Shown here in pieces: positions 23,232 through 29,940 of a DNA stretch of 64,000 nucleotides. The position numbers and the translations under genes are program-made. Where the stretch lies: sequence record PQ529420; one strand, written 5' to 3'. The stretch comes from Escherichia phage Eryne. Position 1 is the stretch's first letter; each line of letters opens with the position of its first letter. Under the pieces are notes generated by a model. The model did not search any database and had not been told where the DNA came from. It was given only the letters and a program-made list of their open reading frames with translations.

Positions 23232-24221
23232 CTATTCCTCCATACATTTAAGAATATGTGCAATGACAGGTATAGTCCAACCGTTACCTAACATCTTATA
23301 TGCTTGTGTGTTACTACTCACTTTAAAGTAGTCATCTGGCACACCTTGCAAACGGCAACACTCTTTAACGGTTAACTTTCTATAATGTACGCCTTCACTC
23401 AATTTTTCAAAAGCATCTAAATATCTTCCAGGTGGAATGTAAGCTAATAGTACGTCTTTCGGCACAGTCGTGAGGCAACGAGTTTTTTCACTGTCCTGAA
23501 CTTCCAAACAATGTACCAAACGATCAGTTTTAGATGTACTACGTTTGCCATTTTCATTAATTCTACGCCCATATATTGCTGCCGGATAAAAAACCAGTTG
23601 TCTGCGACTCTTTTCAAAATACTGTTCTATATTACCACCTTTGGCATAATTTGCATCTATGCAATAAGCCTTATCTCTGTCTACAATACTATCATCTTCA
23701 ATGATATCTTGCAACACTTCATTGGTAATATCCCAAGGTTTTATTTCCCAGTTGCACCAGTATAAACGTTGTCTATTCTGTGCCGTGAAATCTGCGGAGT
23801 TAATGAATACGGGATCAACACCTAAGTAACTTGTGATCACGTTTTCCCACTCCACTTTCATCTTAACGTTTTCAAGCATGAACTTAACATTAGGGTTAAA
23901 CTTTTTAATATGTTCAAGAATCTCGACATATTCGAAGAATAGCTTAGATCGCGGATCTTGAAAATTCAAACCTTTACCAGAAGAAGAGAAGCCTTGACAC
24001 GGACTACCACCTAACAAAAGATCAATTTCTCCCCACGGGATATCCCATTCTCTCCATTTTGTAACATCACCTAACTGAATAATATCTGGAAAATTTGCTT
24101 GGCTTTCAGCTACGGCAAATTTGTCTAATTCTGAAGCGTAATATGTATCTACTTCAATACCTGCACTTTTTAGCGCAAGCATTCCTCCTGACATACCATC
24201 AAAAAGACTTAAAACTTTCAT
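23232..24221 (-). CDS. DNA (cytosine-5)-methyltransferase
   Basis: motif I LSLFDGMSGG, motif IV GGSPCQGFS, motif VI ENV; RBS AAGGAG. Confidence 0.8.
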   Translation of the reverse strand: MKVLSLFDGMSGGMLALKSAGIEVDTYYASELDKFAVAESQANFPDIIQLGDVTKWREWDIPWGEIDLLLGGSPCQGFSSSGKGLNFQDPRSKLFFEYVEILEHIKKFNPNVKFMLENVKMKVEWENVITSYLGVDPVFINSADFTAQNRQRLYWCNWEIKPWDITNEVLQDIIEDDSIVDRDKAYCIDANYAKGGNIEQYFEKSRRQLVFYPAAIYGRRINENGKRSTSKTDRLVHCLEVQDSEKTRCLTTVPKDVLLAYIPPGRYLDAFEKLSEGVHYRKLTVKECCRLQGVPDDYFKVSSNTQAYKMLGNGWTIPVIAHILKCMEE

Positions 24222-24223
24222 TA

Positions 24224-24634
24224 TTACTTCTTCTCCTTAACACTAGCTGGTAATTCTGCCTTGAGGCAGAAGTTTAAACGGTAAGCCTCATTCTCATTTA
24301 AAAGTACAGATTCACACGATAACCAGAACAAGAGATCCTCAATACCAGGGCTGTTAAGCCAACAGTGCAGAAGAGAATGTTGTTCTATATCAATGTAATT
24401 TAGTAACAAGGCTTGTAAGGCATAACTAGTTCCTGTCGTTTTTGCTTTTTCAAGGATGATATTGTGTTTACTAACAACTTTCTTCCTAAGACCAAACCAT
24501 TTATTAACAACAACAGTCTCCTCTTGTAGTTGTTTTCTTATTTTCTCACATTCTTTAACTACAATCTGCATCTTATCCACTGCTGATTGAAGTTGTTCTT
24601 TTGTTGGGTTTACAAAATAGTCACTATAGTACAT
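24224..24634 (-). CDS. hypothetical protein (136 aa)
   Basis: track ORF; RBS GAGGAG. Confidence 0.5.
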   Translation of the reverse strand: MYYSDYFVNPTKEQLQSAVDKMQIVVKECEKIRKQLQEETVVVNKWFGLRKKVVSKHNIILEKAKTTGTSYALQALLLNYIDIEQHSLLHCWLNSPGIEDLLFWLSCESVLLNENEAYRLNFCLKAELPASVKEKK

Positions 24635-24692
24635 GCTAATCTTCTCCTCTTCTGTTTTTCTGTAGTTTATTTGAAAAAACTGGTCTTGTCAA

Positions 24693-24716
24693 CAAAAAAC
24701 CCGCCGAAGCGGGTTT
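24693..24716 (-). terminator. rho-independent terminator (minus strand)
   Basis: ACCCGC-ttcg-GCGGGT hairpin followed by T-run on minus strand; same hairpin as at 20.33 kb. Confidence 0.55.
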
Positions 24717-24719
24717 ATA

Positions 24720-24977
24720 TTATTCTACAGGAACTTCTTCACCAAGAGAAACTTCTAAACGGAATGCTTTACTTTCAATACACTCACTACCTTTTAGAAA
24801 ATCAAATTGCACTATAGACTGACTTAATAGAATAGATAGAATTACATCGCAATCTTCACTAGGAGCTAGATGTTTGTATTCTTCCTTCAAGGTAACATCA
24901 TAAAAACATAAATCCCCTACTCCTAGTTCATCCCATCCTTCCCACGCATCTACAAAGTTAAACTCTAAACCTTTCAT
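24720..24977 (-). CDS. hypothetical protein (85 aa)
   Basis: track ORF. Confidence 0.45.
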   Translation of the reverse strand: MKGLEFNFVDAWEGWDELGVGDLCFYDVTLKEEYKHLAPSEDCDVILSILLSQSIVQFDFLKGSECIESKAFRLEVSLGEEVPVE

Positions 24978-28050: not shown

Positions 28051-28254
28051 TTAACTAGCAACCGTAACTTCCGAACTTTCTTCTTTCGTACTGTCTACGA
28101 TATGCCTGGTGGCAATATACGAGACTTGCCAGTTACCATCTGGTGTAGTCTCAATAAGTACCCTATCTACTTCGAGAAAATGCAAAAATTCAACCATCGC
28201 TCGCTTCGATAGGAATTGTTTTTTAACAGTCTCCTCAAAAGATTGAACTGCCAT
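28051..28254 (-). CDS. hypothetical protein (67 aa)
   Basis: track ORF. Confidence 0.45.
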   Translation of the reverse strand: MAVQSFEETVKKQFLSKRAMVEFLHFLEVDRVLIETTPDGNWQVSYIATRHIVDSTKEESSEVTVAS

Positions 28255-28263
28255 GTTTCCTCC

Positions 28264-28926
28264 TTATTTAATATTCAATTTTGCACAAAGACGTTGTACC
28301 GCTTTGGCATCGAACAAACTCCCACGAATAGTTCTCTTTCCTGATTCATTCAGATGTTTTGCAATCGTCATATATGGCGTTTTACAAGCTCTGTATGCAA
28401 CTAAAGAATCTTTTAAAGAAAGCGCAAACTCTTTTGAGCGTTTTGCTTCTTCCGTTTTCGTATAATCTGTTCTTTTGTATTTAGGGTTTGCTGCACCAAG
28501 AAGCGTTCCCTTCGCTTTTGCTACTTTAAGGCTCTTCTTAACACGATCAGATATTGCACGAGCCTCTTCTTCTGCCAGAACTGCTAAAATATTTATTATC
28601 ATATTTTCAGCGGAGGGCATAGTTGCTATTCGTACATTAATCATCTCTAACAAGGTTGCAACAGAAGCTGTGTTACGTCCAAGACGGTCAACCTTAGCAA
28701 CAACAAGTGTAGCACCTGTTTCTTTGCAAAGATTAACAGCTTTTACAAGCTCTCTACGTTGCTTCCAATCGCCTTTACCCGAATAAAACTCTGCAAAGCT
28801 ACCTACAATAGTATAATTTTCTTGTGAATCCAGGAAGCGTTGGATATCTGCTTCCTGTGATTCTATACCATACTGGTTGCCTTGTTGTTTCTTCTTAGAA
28901 AGTCGATGATACAGTACAAACTTCAT
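28264..28926 (-). CDS. serine recombinase (resolvase/invertase-like catalytic domain)
   Basis: N-terminal YHRLSKKKQ with candidate catalytic Ser, VAKVDRLGRN motif, C-terminal segment like recombinase-domain DNA-binding region; RBS AGGAGG. Confidence 0.65.
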   Translation of the reverse strand: MKFVLYHRLSKKKQQGNQYGIESQEADIQRFLDSQENYTIVGSFAEFYSGKGDWKQRRELVKAVNLCKETGATLVVAKVDRLGRNTASVATLLEMINVRIATMPSAENMIINILAVLAEEEARAISDRVKKSLKVAKAKGTLLGAANPKYKRTDYTKTEEAKRSKEFALSLKDSLVAYRACKTPYMTIAKHLNESGKRTIRGSLFDAKAVQRLCAKLNIK

Positions 28927-28983
28927 AATACCCTCCTGTTCTGTTACAGGAAGTATGCACTACCTTAACGTTAAAGTCAACAG

Positions 28984-29199
28984 TTAAGTAGTGGTAATAT
29001 CATCTTCTTGAATATCAGGATCAACTTCTGCAAAGATAGCTTCTACAGGAATTTCTTCACCTGCTATTCTAGAAAGAAGCACTGAACCAATAGCTTTTGC
29101 GTGTTCTTCGGATTCCGCATAAACATTAGTCCCTGTGTCTTTTTTCTTAGTTTCGTTAAAATATACCAGATAGTAATTGTATGCCATTATTCTTCCCAA
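28984..29199 (-). CDS. hypothetical protein (71 aa)
   Basis: track ORF. Confidence 0.45.
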   Translation of the reverse strand: MGRIMAYNYYLVYFNETKKKDTGTNVYAESEEHAKAIGSVLLSRIAGEEIPVEAIFAEVDPDIQEDDITTT

Positions 29200-29438
29200 T
29201 CGTTGTTACGAGCATTTTCAAGAACCTTGACAACTTCTGCATACTCTACAGCTAAACCAGCACACACTTCAGCTTGTTTTGCAATTGCTTGTTTAAAGAA
29301 CATAGCGATTGCAACACTCTGTGTTGTGTGAATGTTATCTGCTTTAGTTGATACGTGAAGATCAAAATCTTCTTCATCAAAGGTGAGTTCCATAGTAACA
29401 ATAAATTTCTCGGTCATAAAAATGCTCCTCTTAAACAA
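29187..29438 (-). CDS. hypothetical protein (83 aa)
   Basis: track ORF. Confidence 0.45.
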   Translation of the reverse strand: MFKRSIFMTEKFIVTMELTFDEEDFDLHVSTKADNIHTTQSVAIAMFFKQAIAKQAEVCAGLAVEYAEVVKVLENARNNDWEE

Positions 29439-29940
29439 AATAGAAAGGTTGAGTTAAACCCAGCCTGTTTTTTGGGTCGTAGACGTACCAAGCATATGCT
29501 GTCTTATCAGTACCACCTGCAACAAAAGATGGTCGTTCAGAAAGAACAATCAAATTTGTTGGTGGATTCTGTTTATGGAATTCCCTTCGTTTAATAGACT
29601 CTAGGAAACCAAGACGCAACAAGTATATGCAAACGTCTGCTTCTTTTAAGCTCTTTTGCAAGAACTCAAGTGCAAGTTTGAATGGGGGATTTGTGATTAT
29701 AATATCCGGCTTAGTATGCCATTCATGGTTAAAATAATCTTTCCCTTCTTCTAACTCACAATATTCTGATCCTTCTGGAAAATGTTGATAAATTGCAGCA
29801 GCAGCGCCTTTACACGGTTCTGCAAAAATAAAACCTTCTTCTTTAAGGTTATTAAAATCTATTACACTAAATAATGCATTTATACATTTTTGTGGAGTAG
29901 GATAGTAATCAGTTGGTGGACGATCATACTTATTTGCCAC
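29431..29940 (-). CDS. DNA N6-adenine methyltransferase (small phage Dam-type), putative
   Basis: DYYPTP near N-terminus and IIITNPPF (NPPF/NPPY motif IV of amino-methyltransferases); RBS AGGAG. Confidence 0.6.
   Translation of the reverse strand: MANKYDRPPTDYYPTPQKCINALFSVIDFNNLKEEGFIFAEPCKGAAAAIYQHFPEGSEYCELEEGKDYFNHEWHTKPDIIITNPPFKLALEFLQKSLKEADVCIYLLRLGFLESIKRREFHKQNPPTNLIVLSERPSFVAGGTDKTAYAWYVYDPKNRLGLTQPFYFV

What the first reader, a model, noticed from the sequence alone, without database searches (positions are those of the whole stretch)
23232..29940. Two DNA methyltransferases of different specificity plus a small serine recombinase
A C5-cytosine methyltransferase (23232..24221) and a small N6-adenine methyltransferase (29431..29940) lie within 6 kb; both are likely anti-restriction self-modification. 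Between them is a 220-aa serine recombinase (28264..28926), which is unusual for a phage with no other lysogeny hallmarks. It could be a DNA invertase switching a host-range or regulatory segment, or a moron remnant.
Basis: partly seen in the sequence, partly recalled or inferred. Interest (0 to 1): 0.45.

Follow-up and report, generated by a model that had tools for sequence, protein, structure and literature searches.

The report
Known phi92 methylases and orphan recombinase
The two methyltransferase genes and the small serine recombinase gene are real, but they are already-annotated early genes of a phi92-type virulent E. coli phage, and no invertible DNA segment was found to go with the recombinase, so the proposed host-range switch is not supported.

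Summary
The window comes from a phi92-like virulent E. coli myovirus (Justusliebigvirus). The three ORFs sit exactly where reported and are 98-100% identical to phi92 gp043, gp053 and gp056.

- C5-methyltransferase: an intact Dnmt-type enzyme in its own promoter-terminator cassette. Sister phages carry a different methyltransferase in the same slot, so it is an accessory gene.
- 169-aa "N6-adenine methyltransferase": a confident amino-methyltransferase core (NPPF) with no target-recognition domain. It is a core gene of the whole rV5-like supergroup. DNA versus RNA substrate is unresolved.
- Recombinase: catalytically intact, under purifying selection (dN/dS about 0.1), and preceded by a sigma70-like promoter in seven lineages. 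It lies in at least three different genome positions. Its C-terminus resembles the start of the large-serine-recombinase "Recombinase" domain, not the Hin/Gin HTH.

No inverted-repeat-bracketed segment was found in whole genomes or near the gene in any phi92-clade relative, although the same scan detects such sites beside distant homologues. The one inversion polymorphism found lacks junction repeats and follows haplotype. No copies occur in E. coli chromosomes.

Verdict: ordinary, already-known gene content. The invertase reading is not supported, the remnant reading is refuted, and the recombinase's target remains unknown.

The parts
23232..24221 (-). Dnmt-type C5-cytosine DNA methyltransferase (phi92 gp043 orthologue), 329 aa, all catalytic motifs present
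   Evidence: ORF; PF00145 2.1e-43; phrog_116 4.3e-74; TIGR00675 2.9e-41, but the Dcm subfamily model NF007772 scores only 30 bits against a cutoff of 710; PDB hits to DNMT3A/B, M.HhaI and M.HaeIII at about 1e-23
24224..24634 (-). 136-aa gene of unknown function (phi92 gp044), first gene of the C5-MTase transcription unit
   Evidence: ORF; phrog_16551, unknown function, 7.5e-75
24664..24716 (-). Terminator hairpin (24697-24716) followed directly by a sigma70-like promoter TTGACA-N17-TAAACT (24692-24664); upstream boundary of the C5-MTase cassette
   Evidence: Consensus scan; the same hairpin is inverted-repeat arm I4
22460..22480 (-). Terminator-like hairpin at the downstream boundary of the unit containing gp044, the C5-MTase, gp042 and gp041
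   Evidence: Consensus scan
28264..28926 (-). Small serine recombinase (phi92 gp053 orthologue), 220 aa: catalytic domain plus a C-terminal HTH resembling the start of the large-serine-recombinase 'Recombinase' domain
   Evidence: ORF; PF00239 8.4e-22; conserved catalytic residues; PF07508 in 20 of 28 family members at E<=1, though not in the window protein itself, and no HTH_7 match; profile hits to Tn3, gamma-delta and Sin resolvases and Gin, 5e-17 to 1e-14; dN/dS about 0.08-0.10
28952..28980 (-). Sigma70-like promoter TTGACT-N17-CATACT in the 57-bp spacer upstream of the recombinase gene
   Evidence: An equivalent TTGAC[A/T]-N16/17 promoter precedes the gene in FKP3, KP13-16, phAPEC8/536P1, Vibrio phage VPMCC14 and Shewanella phage 1/40
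29431..29940 (-). 169-aa amino-(N6-adenine-type) methyltransferase core without a target-recognition domain (phi92 gp056 orthologue)
29930..30358 (-). 142-aa gene of unknown function (phi92 gp057) whose stop overlaps the small MTase start by 11 nt; the pair is conserved only within Stephanstirmvirinae
   Evidence: ORF; phrog_15078, unknown function; tblastn finds 133 records, always adjacent to the MTase, against 500 records for the MTase itself
30416..30444 (-). Sigma70-like promoter TTGACA-N17-TAAAGT (with TG) heading the unit gp057 - small MTase - gp055 - gp054
   Evidence: Consensus scan

Best explanation
The interval is ordinary early-region gene content of a phi92-like strictly virulent myovirus. 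It holds three functionally unlinked genes, each transcribed from host-type (sigma70-like) promoters.

(1) gp043-like C5-MTase. This is an accessory orphan Dnmt enzyme in a promoter-terminator cassette. It occupies a slot next to gp041 that carries a different methyltransferase (phrog_757, 227-229 aa) in Phapecoctavirus and Klebsiella phage FKP3. Most likely (inferred) it methylates one short cytosine motif on phage DNA and protects only against cognate host endonucleases.

(2) gp056-like 169-aa enzyme. This is a minimal N6-adenine-type methyltransferase core conserved across the rV5-like supergroup. Most likely (about 65%) it is a DNA m6A enzyme of narrow or unusual specificity. Otherwise it is an RNA m6A enzyme.

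(3) gp053-like small serine recombinase. It is catalytically competent, independently transcribed, under purifying selection, and not a Hin/Gin-type invertase. No invertible segment exists. By analogy with its full-length homologues, which are the only annotated recombinase on two small non-mobilizable plasmids of 6.4 and 7.3 kb, the most likely chemistry (inferred, low confidence, about 0.3) is resolvase-type recombination between directly repeated copies of an unidentified site on replicating phage DNA.

Shown: gene identities, motif integrity, conservation, positions, promoters, and the absence of inverted-repeat-flanked or orientation-variable segments. Inferred: substrates, target sites and biological roles.
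For: Identity with phi92-like phages and their annotation.

C5-MTase: domain and motifs. Only Justusliebigvirus has it at >=95% identity; the next best is about 50% in jumbo phages. The same slot holds a phrog_757 methyltransferase in 536P1 and FKP3. Cassette boundaries.

Small MTase: motifs, model and fold. Supergroup-wide distribution.

Recombinase: catalytic residues; dN/dS about 0.1, and better conserved than its neighbours; sigma70-like promoter in seven lineages. Three different genome positions: the phi92/FKP3 slot; KP13-16, downstream of the phosphatase; and Phapecoctavirus, in the opposite transcription block with a 45-bp empty site between the gp052 and gp054 homologues. PhoH...recombinase...DprA synteny in Shewanella phage 1/40. 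LSR-type rather than Hin-type C-terminus.

No invertible segment: window scan; whole-genome self-comparison of three genomes, where all close pairs are terminator hairpins; pairwise genome comparison; scan within 6 kb in nine phi92-clade loci, with a positive control in L036/L039.

No integrated copies in 5,426 E. coli genomes. No close relatives in 185,579 prokaryotic genomes by pattern scan. Full-length homologues at about 35% identity on 6.4-kb and 7.3-kb non-mobilizable plasmids, the latter with Rep and ParA.
Against: No target site of any kind was identified for the recombinase, so the resolvase-type mechanism is an analogy and not a finding. The 57-bp upstream spacer has no room for a classical three-subsite res. 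No repeated dyads were found near the gene. A phage with 343-bp direct terminal repeats has no obvious need for multimer resolution.

Invertase sites can be short and imperfect and could escape seed-based scans in AT-rich DNA. Some distant homologues with the same architecture do sit beside inverted sites, so the family can probably invert.

Only consensus assemblies were compared. Minority orientations within a phage population cannot be seen.

Methyltransferase specificities and substrates are untested. The BASEL report of high RM susceptibility covers only six RM systems.
Confidence: 0.6

Rival explanations
1. The recombinase is a DNA invertase, local like Hin/Gin or trans-acting like Bacteroides Mpi, that flips a phage segment. 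One candidate is the 0.88-kb two-gene cassette with its divergent promoter, which is found in both orientations among isolates.
For: PHROG label 'DNA invertase'. Weak full-length similarity to the Mpi model, 33.5 bits. Distant homologues (35-36% identity, same architecture) lie beside three inverted 16-bp sites. An in-situ 0.88-kb inversion splits about 31:24 among Justusliebigvirus genomes.
Against: No inverted repeats at the inversion junctions (score 14 against a shuffle mean of 15). Non-homologous DNA at both junctions (23 vs 63 bp, 202 vs 429 bp), so the rearrangement is not conservative. Orientation tracks flanking haplotype, and Phapecoctavirus has the same orientation as one class. No inverted-repeat-bracketed segment in whole genomes or near the gene in nine clade loci. 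No HTH_7 domain. The Mpi score is far below its cutoff of 272.
Confidence: 0.05
2. The recombinase gene is a selfish or horizontally shuffled promoter-plus-gene cassette (a moron in the strict sense) that persists through mobility between co-infecting phages and gives the phage little benefit.
For: Single-gene presence/absence with a clean 45-bp empty site in Phapecoctavirus, and the gene relocated to another transcription block on the other strand. A third position in KP13-16. Own promoter everywhere. Absent from Vequintavirus.
Against: No shared flanking sequences or att-like repeats at the two insertion points beyond promoter hexamers. Strong purifying selection and higher conservation than neighbouring genes. 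The position is stable across the lineages at 72-87% identity and in FKP3. Similar synteny in a very distant Shewanella phage.
Confidence: 0.12
3. The recombinase cyclises the incoming linear genome, or switches replication mode, by recombining a site inside the two 343-bp direct terminal repeats. This would be a serine-recombinase analogue of P1 Cre-lox.
For: Fixed 343-bp DTRs. Early, host-RNAP-dependent expression. Dyad-symmetric 15-19-bp motifs occur twice in the DTR. Plasmid homologues suggest resolution-type chemistry.
Against: The DTR dyads match the E. coli Fur-box consensus at 17 of 19 positions and form arrays elsewhere in the genome, which gives a simpler explanation. Nothing links them to the recombinase. 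From general knowledge, resolvases normally need supercoiled substrates.
Confidence: 0.06
4. The recombinase acts on host DNA, as a host-takeover or anti-defence function, rather than on phage DNA.
For: Immediate-early type promoter. It is embedded among host-takeover-type genes (Sir2-like, PhoH-like, HslV-like, NinI-like phosphatase, DprA-like). No target was found in the phage genome.
Against: No positive evidence. Homologues occur in phages of very different hosts (Escherichia, Klebsiella, Vibrio, Shewanella, Cellulophaga), which argues against a conserved host site.
Confidence: 0.1
5. The 169-aa 'DNA methyltransferase' is an RNA m6A methyltransferase acting on phage or host tRNA or rRNA, not a DNA-modifying anti-restriction enzyme.
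Against: DNA enzymes score almost the same (MmeI 13.0, M.TaqI 12.9; CamA is top in Foldseek). Sub-threshold Pfam matches are mostly to DNA adenine MTases (EcoRI_methylase 36 of 40, Dam 12, N6_Mtase 10, Eco57I 8). Profile-PDB hits are to DpnA and a type I M subunit. The PHROG label is 'DNA methyltransferase'.
Confidence: 0.25

Closest known systems
Escherichia phage phi92 gp043, gp053 and gp056 (NC_023693; Justusliebigvirus), and the same genes in about 55 related genomes
   Same: 98-100% protein identity, same order and orientation, same neighbours. Annotated there as 'putative site-specific DNA-methylase', 'putative recombinase, resolvase family protein / DNA invertase' and 'DNA methyltransferase'.
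   Different: Nothing material. The window is another isolate of the same genus. I found no experimental characterisation of any of the three genes in the papers searched.
Hin/Gin/Cin/Pin DNA invertases
   Same: Serine-recombinase catalytic domain with the nucleophile Ser and the Arg/Asp/Arg cluster. Profile match to Gin structures, 4e-15 to 1e-14.
   Different: The C-terminus is not HTH_7; in 20 of 28 family members it resembles the LSR 'Recombinase' domain. There is no adjacent segment flanked by inverted repeats and no orientation polymorphism with junction repeats. The protein is 220 aa, not about 190.
Tn3, gamma-delta and Sin resolvases, and plasmid multimer resolvases
   Same: Best matches among solved structures (Tn3 5e-17, Sin/Bin3 2e-16, gamma-delta 1e-15). 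Full-length homologues at about 35% identity are the only annotated recombinase on 6-7-kb plasmids.
   Different: No transposase partner, no recognisable res site (only 57 bp upstream), and no directly repeated dyads nearby. The replicon is a linear DTR phage genome.
Large serine recombinases (CcrB, TP901-1 and A118-type integrases)
   Same: The best NCBIfam hit is the N-terminal 225 residues of CcrB (3.7e-9). The C-terminal HTH matches the start of PF07508 in most family members.
   Different: It lacks the rest of the recombinase domain, the zinc ribbon and the coiled coil (220 aa against 450-700). No integration was seen in E. coli genomes.
M.HhaI, M.HaeIII and Dnmt3-type C5 DNA methyltransferases; orphan phage C5-MTases
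   Same: Full PF00145 match and catalytic motifs. No restriction endonuclease is annotated next to it.
   Different: It is not an orthologue of E. coli Dcm, despite 'Dcm-like' labels in some records (NF007772 30 bits against a cutoff of 710). Its target sequence is unknown.
Gamma-class N6-adenine DNA MTases (M.TaqI, HsdM, MmeI, CamA) and small RNA m6A MTases (METTL5/PH1948, TrmM, Erm/KsgA)
   Different: It has no target-recognition domain and no partner conserved across the family. At 169 aa it is, to my knowledge, smaller than characterised DNA MTases. It does not reach the threshold of any Pfam or NCBIfam model.

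Membership tests
Hin/Gin/Cin/Pin DNA invertases | N-terminal serine-recombinase catalytic domain with the nucleophile Ser and conserved Arg/Asp residues | tested here: met
   PF00239 8.4e-22; R8, S10, D80, R81, R84, E121, R128 conserved
Hin/Gin/Cin/Pin DNA invertases | C-terminal resolvase/invertase-type HTH (Pfam HTH_7) | tested here: not met
   No HTH_7 match in any of 28 family members at E<=1; 20 of 28 match PF07508 'Recombinase' instead
Hin/Gin/Cin/Pin DNA invertases | Invertible segment bracketed by inverted crossover sites, next to the recombinase gene | tested here: not met
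   Nothing in the window, in three whole genomes, or within 6 kb in nine clade loci. The same scan finds three 16-bp sites beside the distant homologues L036 and L039
Hin/Gin/Cin/Pin DNA invertases | Both orientations of the segment seen among independent isolates, with conservative junctions | tested here: not met
   The only in-situ inversion (0.88 kb, outside the window) lacks junction repeats, has non-homologous junction DNA and follows haplotype. Consensus assemblies only
Hin/Gin/Cin/Pin DNA invertases | Fis-dependent recombinational enhancer | not tested
   No tool or criterion was applied
Tn3/gamma-delta/Sin-type resolvases | Multi-subsite res site next to the gene | tested here: inconclusive
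   Only 57 bp of upstream spacer, holding a promoter and one 10-bp palindrome that is not conserved in relatives. No repeated dyads. Sites inside coding DNA cannot be excluded
Tn3/gamma-delta/Sin-type resolvases | Association with a transposase or a circular replicon that needs multimer resolution | tested here: not met
   No transposase among the neighbours. The genome is linear with 343-bp DTRs. Distant homologues do sit on small plasmids
Large serine recombinases (phage integrases, CcrAB) | Recombinase domain plus zinc ribbon and coiled coil after the catalytic domain | tested here: not met
   The protein ends at residue 220. Only the first HTH-like part of PF07508 is matched, and only in relatives
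Large serine recombinases (phage integrases, CcrAB) | Integration into a host attB (lysogeny) | tested here: not met
   No match of window 27400-30400 in 5,426 complete E. coli genomes. No close relatives in 185,579 prokaryotic genomes by pattern scan
C5-cytosine DNA methyltransferases (Dnmt, PF00145) | Motifs I (FxGxG), IV (PCQ), VI (ENV), VIII, IX and X in order, with a variable region between VIII and IX | tested here: met
   Full-length PF00145 match. Motifs read directly from the sequence. PDB alignments
C5-cytosine DNA methyltransferases (Dnmt, PF00145) | Sequence-specific 5mC formation on DNA | not testable with these tools
   Needs bisulfite, EM-seq or nanopore methylome data, or an enzyme assay
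E. coli Dcm (CCWGG) orthologues | Score above the NCBIfam Dcm subfamily cutoff | tested here: not met
   NF007772 30 bits against a cutoff of 710
Gamma-class N6-adenine DNA methyltransferases | Motif order X (xTP) - I (ExxxGxG) - II - IV ((N/D)PP(Y/F)) on a Rossmann fold | tested here: met
Gamma-class N6-adenine DNA methyltransferases | Target-recognition domain or a specificity subunit | tested here: not met
   Only about 80 residues follow NPPF and they complete the core fold. The upstream gp057 is a neighbour only within Stephanstirmvirinae
Gamma-class N6-adenine DNA methyltransferases | DNA, not RNA or protein, as the substrate | not testable with these tools
   Fold neighbours are split between DNA and RNA m6A enzymes. 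Sub-threshold Pfam matches lean towards DNA
Orphan anti-restriction methyltransferases of phages | No cognate restriction endonuclease gene adjacent | tested here: inconclusive
   The neighbours gp041, gp044 and gp057 fall in PHROGs of unknown function, and no nuclease is annotated. They were not examined structurally
Orphan anti-restriction methyltransferases of phages | Measurable protection from host restriction | not testable with these tools
   The literature reports phi92-like phages as exceptionally RM-susceptible for six tested systems (PMC8594841). Cognate systems were not tested

The most novel reading that the evidence does not exclude
The 169-aa methyltransferase, which lacks a target-recognition domain and is conserved across the whole rV5-like phage supergroup, is not a DNA anti-restriction enzyme. 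Instead it is a phage-encoded RNA m6A methyltransferase, METTL5/PH1948- or TrmM-like, that modifies phage or host tRNA or rRNA during infection.
Probability: 0.25. Interest if true: 0.5.

Novelty: already known. Interest (0 to 1): 0.2.

Why it matters
The practical value is modest.

- phi92-like phages are candidates for phage therapy and biocontrol. A gene labelled 'DNA invertase' or 'integrase' (phrog_125 / phrog_95) can be mistaken for a marker of a temperate lifestyle. The evidence here argues that it is not a lysogeny module: the gene is not found in bacterial chromosomes, no att-like or invertible structure goes with it, and it is conserved in virulent phages.
- The 'DNA invertase' and 'Dcm-like' labels are family-level names that membership tests do not support.
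- Two small open questions become better defined. What does a conserved, early-expressed serine recombinase do in a virulent phage with direct terminal repeats? Does the minimal 169-aa methyltransferase act on DNA or on RNA?

Neither question is a surprise to specialists, and all three genes are already in public annotation.

Tried and rejected
1. Single-sequence AlphaFold model of the recombinase. pLDDT was 50, so it was unusable. I used profile searches instead.

2. Inverted pairs I3 and I4 in the window, and alia 37223/38385. All are self-complementary GC hairpins with T-runs, so they are terminators and not crossover sites.

3. Pair I20 (28884/34594, 20 nt). One arm lies in the codons for the catalytic Ser region. 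The pair is at chance level among 46 pairs and was not pursued.

4. A second copy of the promoter-proximal sequence AAGGTAGTGCATACTTCC. One 3-mismatch match at 45305 lies inside a coding gene with no dyad symmetry, so I judged it chance.

5. The 0.88-kb inversion as a recombinase product. Rejected for lack of junction repeats, non-conservative junctions and linkage to haplotype.

6. gp057 as a specificity partner of the small MTase. The pair is limited to one subfamily.

7. The 10-bp palindrome TTAACGTTAA in the recombinase promoter as an operator. It is not conserved in FKP3, KP13-16, Phapecoctavirus or the marine phages.

8. Using megablast 'places' counts to find inversions. Record ends and permutation confounded them, so I replaced this with local whole-genome comparisons.

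9. Literature searches for methylome data or recombinase function in these phages found nothing specific. The phi92 genome paper is not held.

10. My initial conclusion that Phapecoctavirus lacks a methyltransferase in the C5-MTase slot was wrong. A divergent phrog_757 methyltransferase sits there.

11. The afdb50 fold library was unavailable.

Full report
WHAT THE WINDOW IS. Megablast of window 22000-31000 finds 107 phage records. Of these, 51 cover at least 80% of the query, and the 25 best listed each match in one collinear piece at 98.0-99.3% identity (ZYD 99.3%, phi92 98.2%). All are Justusliebigvirus (Stephanstirmvirinae) myoviruses of about 146-150 kb. The phi92 RefSeq annotation names the three genes gp043 ('putative site-specific DNA-methylase'), gp053 ('putative recombinase, resolvase family protein / DNA invertase') and gp056 ('DNA methyltransferase'). 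The finding therefore concerns genes that are already in public annotation.

OBSERVATION CHECK. All three ORFs are at the stated coordinates on the minus strand.
- The 329-aa protein matches PF00145 over its full length (E=2.1e-43) and the NCBIfam dcm superfamily model. It has motif I (FDGMSGG), the catalytic PC75Q, ENV, QNRQR and GNGW. Its nearest solved relatives are the catalytic halves of DNMT3A/B, M.HhaI and M.HaeIII. It is not a Dcm orthologue (30 bits against a cutoff of 710).
- The 220-aa protein matches PF00239 (8.4e-22).
- The 169-aa protein has no Pfam or NCBIfam match at threshold but matches phrog_799 at 7.8e-57.

THE SMALL METHYLTRANSFERASE. I collected 225 homologues. None has a precomputed Pfam domain, and most are named 'hypothetical'. 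A 40-sequence alignment shows invariant or nearly invariant D11-x-Y13-x-T15-P16, F39-x-E41-P42-C43-x-G45, an acidic E62, and I81-I-T-N84-P-P-F87. From my own knowledge, this is the motif order X-I-II-IV of gamma-class amino-methyltransferases.

So the N6-adenine-type chemistry is well supported. There is no target-recognition domain, and the substrate is unresolved. The gene is a core gene: >=95% identity in 55 records, 80-90% in 76 (including Phapecoctavirus phages), and about 45-52% in Vequintavirus, GAP31/CR8, phiTE and others. The upstream gp057 overlaps its start by 11 nt, but it is a neighbour only within Stephanstirmvirinae (133 records against 500), so it is not a family-wide partner.

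THE C5-METHYLTRANSFERASE IS AN ACCESSORY CASSETTE. Only Justusliebigvirus has it at >=95% identity (54 records). The next best is about 50% in the jumbo phages PBECO4 and GAP32. It lies in a unit bounded by a terminator plus a TTGACA-N17-TAAACT promoter at 24716-24664 and a terminator at 22480-22460. In Phapecoctavirus 536P1 the flanks are collinear, but the slot next to the gp041 homologue holds different genes. These include a 227-aa protein of phrog_757 'DNA methyltransferase' (1.8e-84) with weak similarity to the catalytic half of the window enzyme (26% over 128 aa). FKP3 has the same allele. A third, beta-class-like methyltransferase (DPPY, 243 aa) lies in another terminator-bounded cassette outside the window, which agrees with a published count of four methyltransferase genes in BME3 (PMC12210895).

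A variable methyltransferase slot is what an arms race with restriction systems would produce. However, the BASEL study found phi92-like phages 'exceptionally susceptible' to the RM systems it tested (PMC8594841). Any protection must therefore be narrow.

THE RECOMBINASE: INTACT, SELECTED, EARLY.
- The protein is >=99% identical in 55 records and 78% in Klebsiella phage FKP3. It is 55-57% identical in phAPEC8-like phages and 51% in KP13-16. It is 25-49% in Vibrio, Shewanella and Cellulophaga phages.
- Y6, R8, S10, R57, D80, R81, R84, E121 and R128 are invariant or nearly so, down to 31% identity.
- dN/dS against relatives at 72-79% identity is about 0.08-0.10 (dS is saturated, so this is approximate). 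The protein is better conserved than gp052, gp054, gp057 and the HisRS-like neighbour. It is not a remnant.
- A TTGAC[A/T]-N16/17 promoter lies directly upstream in the window (28980-28952) and in FKP3, KP13-16, phAPEC8/536P1, VPMCC14 and Shewanella phage 1/40. The gene is consistently an independent unit dependent on host RNA polymerase.

THE RECOMBINASE: WHICH KIND.
- The best NCBIfam matches are far below their cutoffs: the N-terminal 225 residues of CcrB, Mpi and YneB.
- The best solved relatives are Tn3, Sin/Bin3 and gamma-delta resolvases and Gin (5e-17 to 1e-14 with the family profile).
- 20 of 28 family members match PF07508 'Recombinase' at a lenient threshold, and none match HTH_7.
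- The architecture is therefore a catalytic domain plus the first HTH-like part of the large-serine-recombinase DNA-binding domain. It is neither a Hin/Gin invertase nor a full integrase.

THE INVERTASE TEST.
(a) A window-wide scan finds no convincing bracketing repeats. The perfect pairs are terminator hairpins.
(b) I fetched three complete Justusliebigvirus genomes and one Phapecoctavirus genome. Self-comparison of three of them gives only short pairs. All closely spaced ones are terminator hairpins.
(c) Pairwise comparison finds exactly one in-situ inversion. It is a 0.88-kb block (alia OZ035770 74599-75474, about 9-10 kb before the window) holding two small genes and a 119-bp divergent promoter region. 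Among relatives it splits about 31:24. However, orientation follows the flanking haplotype (>=96.8% against <=96.0% flank identity, with the mosaic ZYD as the only exception), and Phapecoctavirus has the same orientation as one class. The junctions have no inverted repeats (score 14 against a shuffle mean of 15). Non-homologous DNA sits at both junctions (23 vs 63 bp and 202 vs 429 bp). This is an old, non-conservative rearrangement and not a switch.
(d) A scan within 6 kb of the gene gives no inverted pairs near the gene in nine phi92-clade loci. Eight gave none at all, and VPMCC14 gave one 14-nt pair 3.5 kb away. The same scan finds three exact copies of TTGAACACATGTGCGA (0.01 expected by chance) beside two distant homologues with the same architecture, which serves as a positive control.

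The limits are that only consensus assemblies were compared, and that short degenerate sites could be missed.

POSITION AND MOBILITY. Window 19.5-40 kb is collinear with 536P1 109.8-128.8 kb, except for the methyltransferase slot and the recombinase. In 536P1 the gp052 and gp054 homologues are 45 bp apart, with a terminator hairpin between them. The recombinase lies 16 kb away in the other transcription block, on the opposite strand relative to the backbone but co-oriented with its local genes. KP13-16 has it at a third position, downstream of the phosphatase and a DprA-sized gene. FKP3 and the lineages at 72-87% identity keep the phi92 slot. Shewanella phage 1/40 has PhoH...ligase...recombinase...DprA. 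The two insertion contexts share nothing beyond promoter hexamers, so self-mobility is not supported.

LIFESTYLE AND WIDER FAMILY. Window 27400-30400 has no match in 5,426 complete E. coli genomes. A pattern scan of 185,579 prokaryotic genomes found no close relative (the scan has limited sensitivity). Full-length homologues at about 35% identity are common on plasmids. These include 6.4-kb and 7.3-kb non-mobilizable plasmids on which they are the only annotated recombinase, the latter beside Rep and ParA. From established plasmid biology, that context implies multimer resolution.

The phage has 343-bp direct terminal repeats that map to window 7364-7706. The best mechanistic guess is therefore resolvase-type recombination between direct copies of an unidentified site on replicating phage DNA. 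I hold this at low confidence. The invertase, selfish-cassette, DTR-cyclisation and host-target readings are listed as rivals.

VERDICT. The genes are already known, and interest is low. The residual open points are the recombinase's target and whether the minimal methyltransferase acts on DNA or RNA.

Noticed in passing
window 7364-7706: This stretch corresponds to the 343-bp direct terminal repeat annotated at both ends of Salmonella phage UAB_1, and many records (phi92, VEcB, PHB05) start at window position 7364. The physical genome end therefore lies inside the window, and the repeat appears once there, presumably collapsed in assembly.
   Followed up: partly
window 7437-7455, 7630-7666, 6488 and 7180-7216; alia OZ035770 80201-80300: Dyad motifs match the E. 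coli Fur-box consensus: GCAAATGATAATCATTATC has 2 mismatches, with 0.02 matches expected by chance. Two copies lie inside the DTR and others just upstream. About five tandem copies, 23-29 bp apart, lie roughly 4 kb before the window start. This may mean iron/Fur-responsive control of early regions or of the genome end.
   Followed up: partly
alia OZ035770 74599-75474 (outside the window, about 9-10 kb before position 1); VEcB L017 1515-2288; muut L018 1496-2372: A 0.88-kb block holds two small genes (291 and 354 nt), a 119-bp divergent promoter region and the first 102 nt of a third ORF. It is inverted in situ in about 24 of 55 Justusliebigvirus genomes and in Phapecoctavirus, so the two genes move between the leftward and rightward operons. 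It has no junction repeats and follows flanking haplotype.
   Followed up: yes
window 23232-24634; Phapecoctavirus 536P1 112952-114966; FKP3 L020 12909-14528: The slot next to the gp041 homologue is a variable methyltransferase slot. It holds a 329-aa Dnmt (phrog_116) in E. coli Justusliebigvirus and a 227-229-aa phrog_757 methyltransferase with no Pfam match in Phapecoctavirus and FKP3.
   Followed up: partly
alia OZ035770 37641-38372 (-), outside the window: A third DNA methyltransferase gene (243 aa, N-terminal DPPY, weak PF01555 N6_N4_Mtase match) lies in a 1.1-kb cassette bounded by two terminator hairpins.
   Followed up: partly
window 59495-62200 (+): A cluster of 15 tRNA genes: Met x2, Leu x2, Ser x2, Lys, Tyr, Asn, Thr, Gly, Gln, Pro, Phe and Ile.
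   Followed up: no
window 307-347, 2616-2656, 2984-3024, 4633-4666, 5487-5527; also 878-908, 5090-5120, 6245-6275 and 21061, 32349, 44879: Families of near-identical GC-rich hairpins (GGGCGGGAAATGGTTTCCCGC, GGGCGCAATAAGCGCCC, GGGGCTTTCGCCCC). Some follow a conserved -10-like TAGTA(A/T)A element. They look like repeated promoter/terminator modules punctuating the early region.
   Followed up: no
L039 3138-6670 and L036 2428-5930 (IMG/VR contigs): Distant homologues (35-36% identity, 228 aa, same architecture) lie beside three exact copies of a 16-20-bp site, one inverted relative to the other two. The sites bracket a 509-aa ORF and a segment holding a 314-aa ORF and the recombinase gene. This is a candidate multi-site inversion/excision system.
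   Followed up: partly
window 21088-21900, 25479-26174, 26388-27134, 27468-27926, 30400-31053, 31581-32333: The neighbourhood is a block of host-takeover and nucleic-acid-metabolism genes: Sir2-like, DprA-like, NinI-like Ser/Thr phosphatase, a PHROG 'histidyl tRNA synthetase'-like protein of only 152 aa, an HslV/proteasome-like peptidase, and PhoH-like.
   Followed up: no
public records MG065639, MG065645, MG065656, MG065689 and PQ110661: Several 'Campylobacter phage' records (flagged UNVERIFIED) are phi92-like genomes at about 97% identity to this E. coli phage. ZYD is filed under Vequintavirus although it is a Justusliebigvirus by sequence. Both are probable labelling problems.
   Followed up: no
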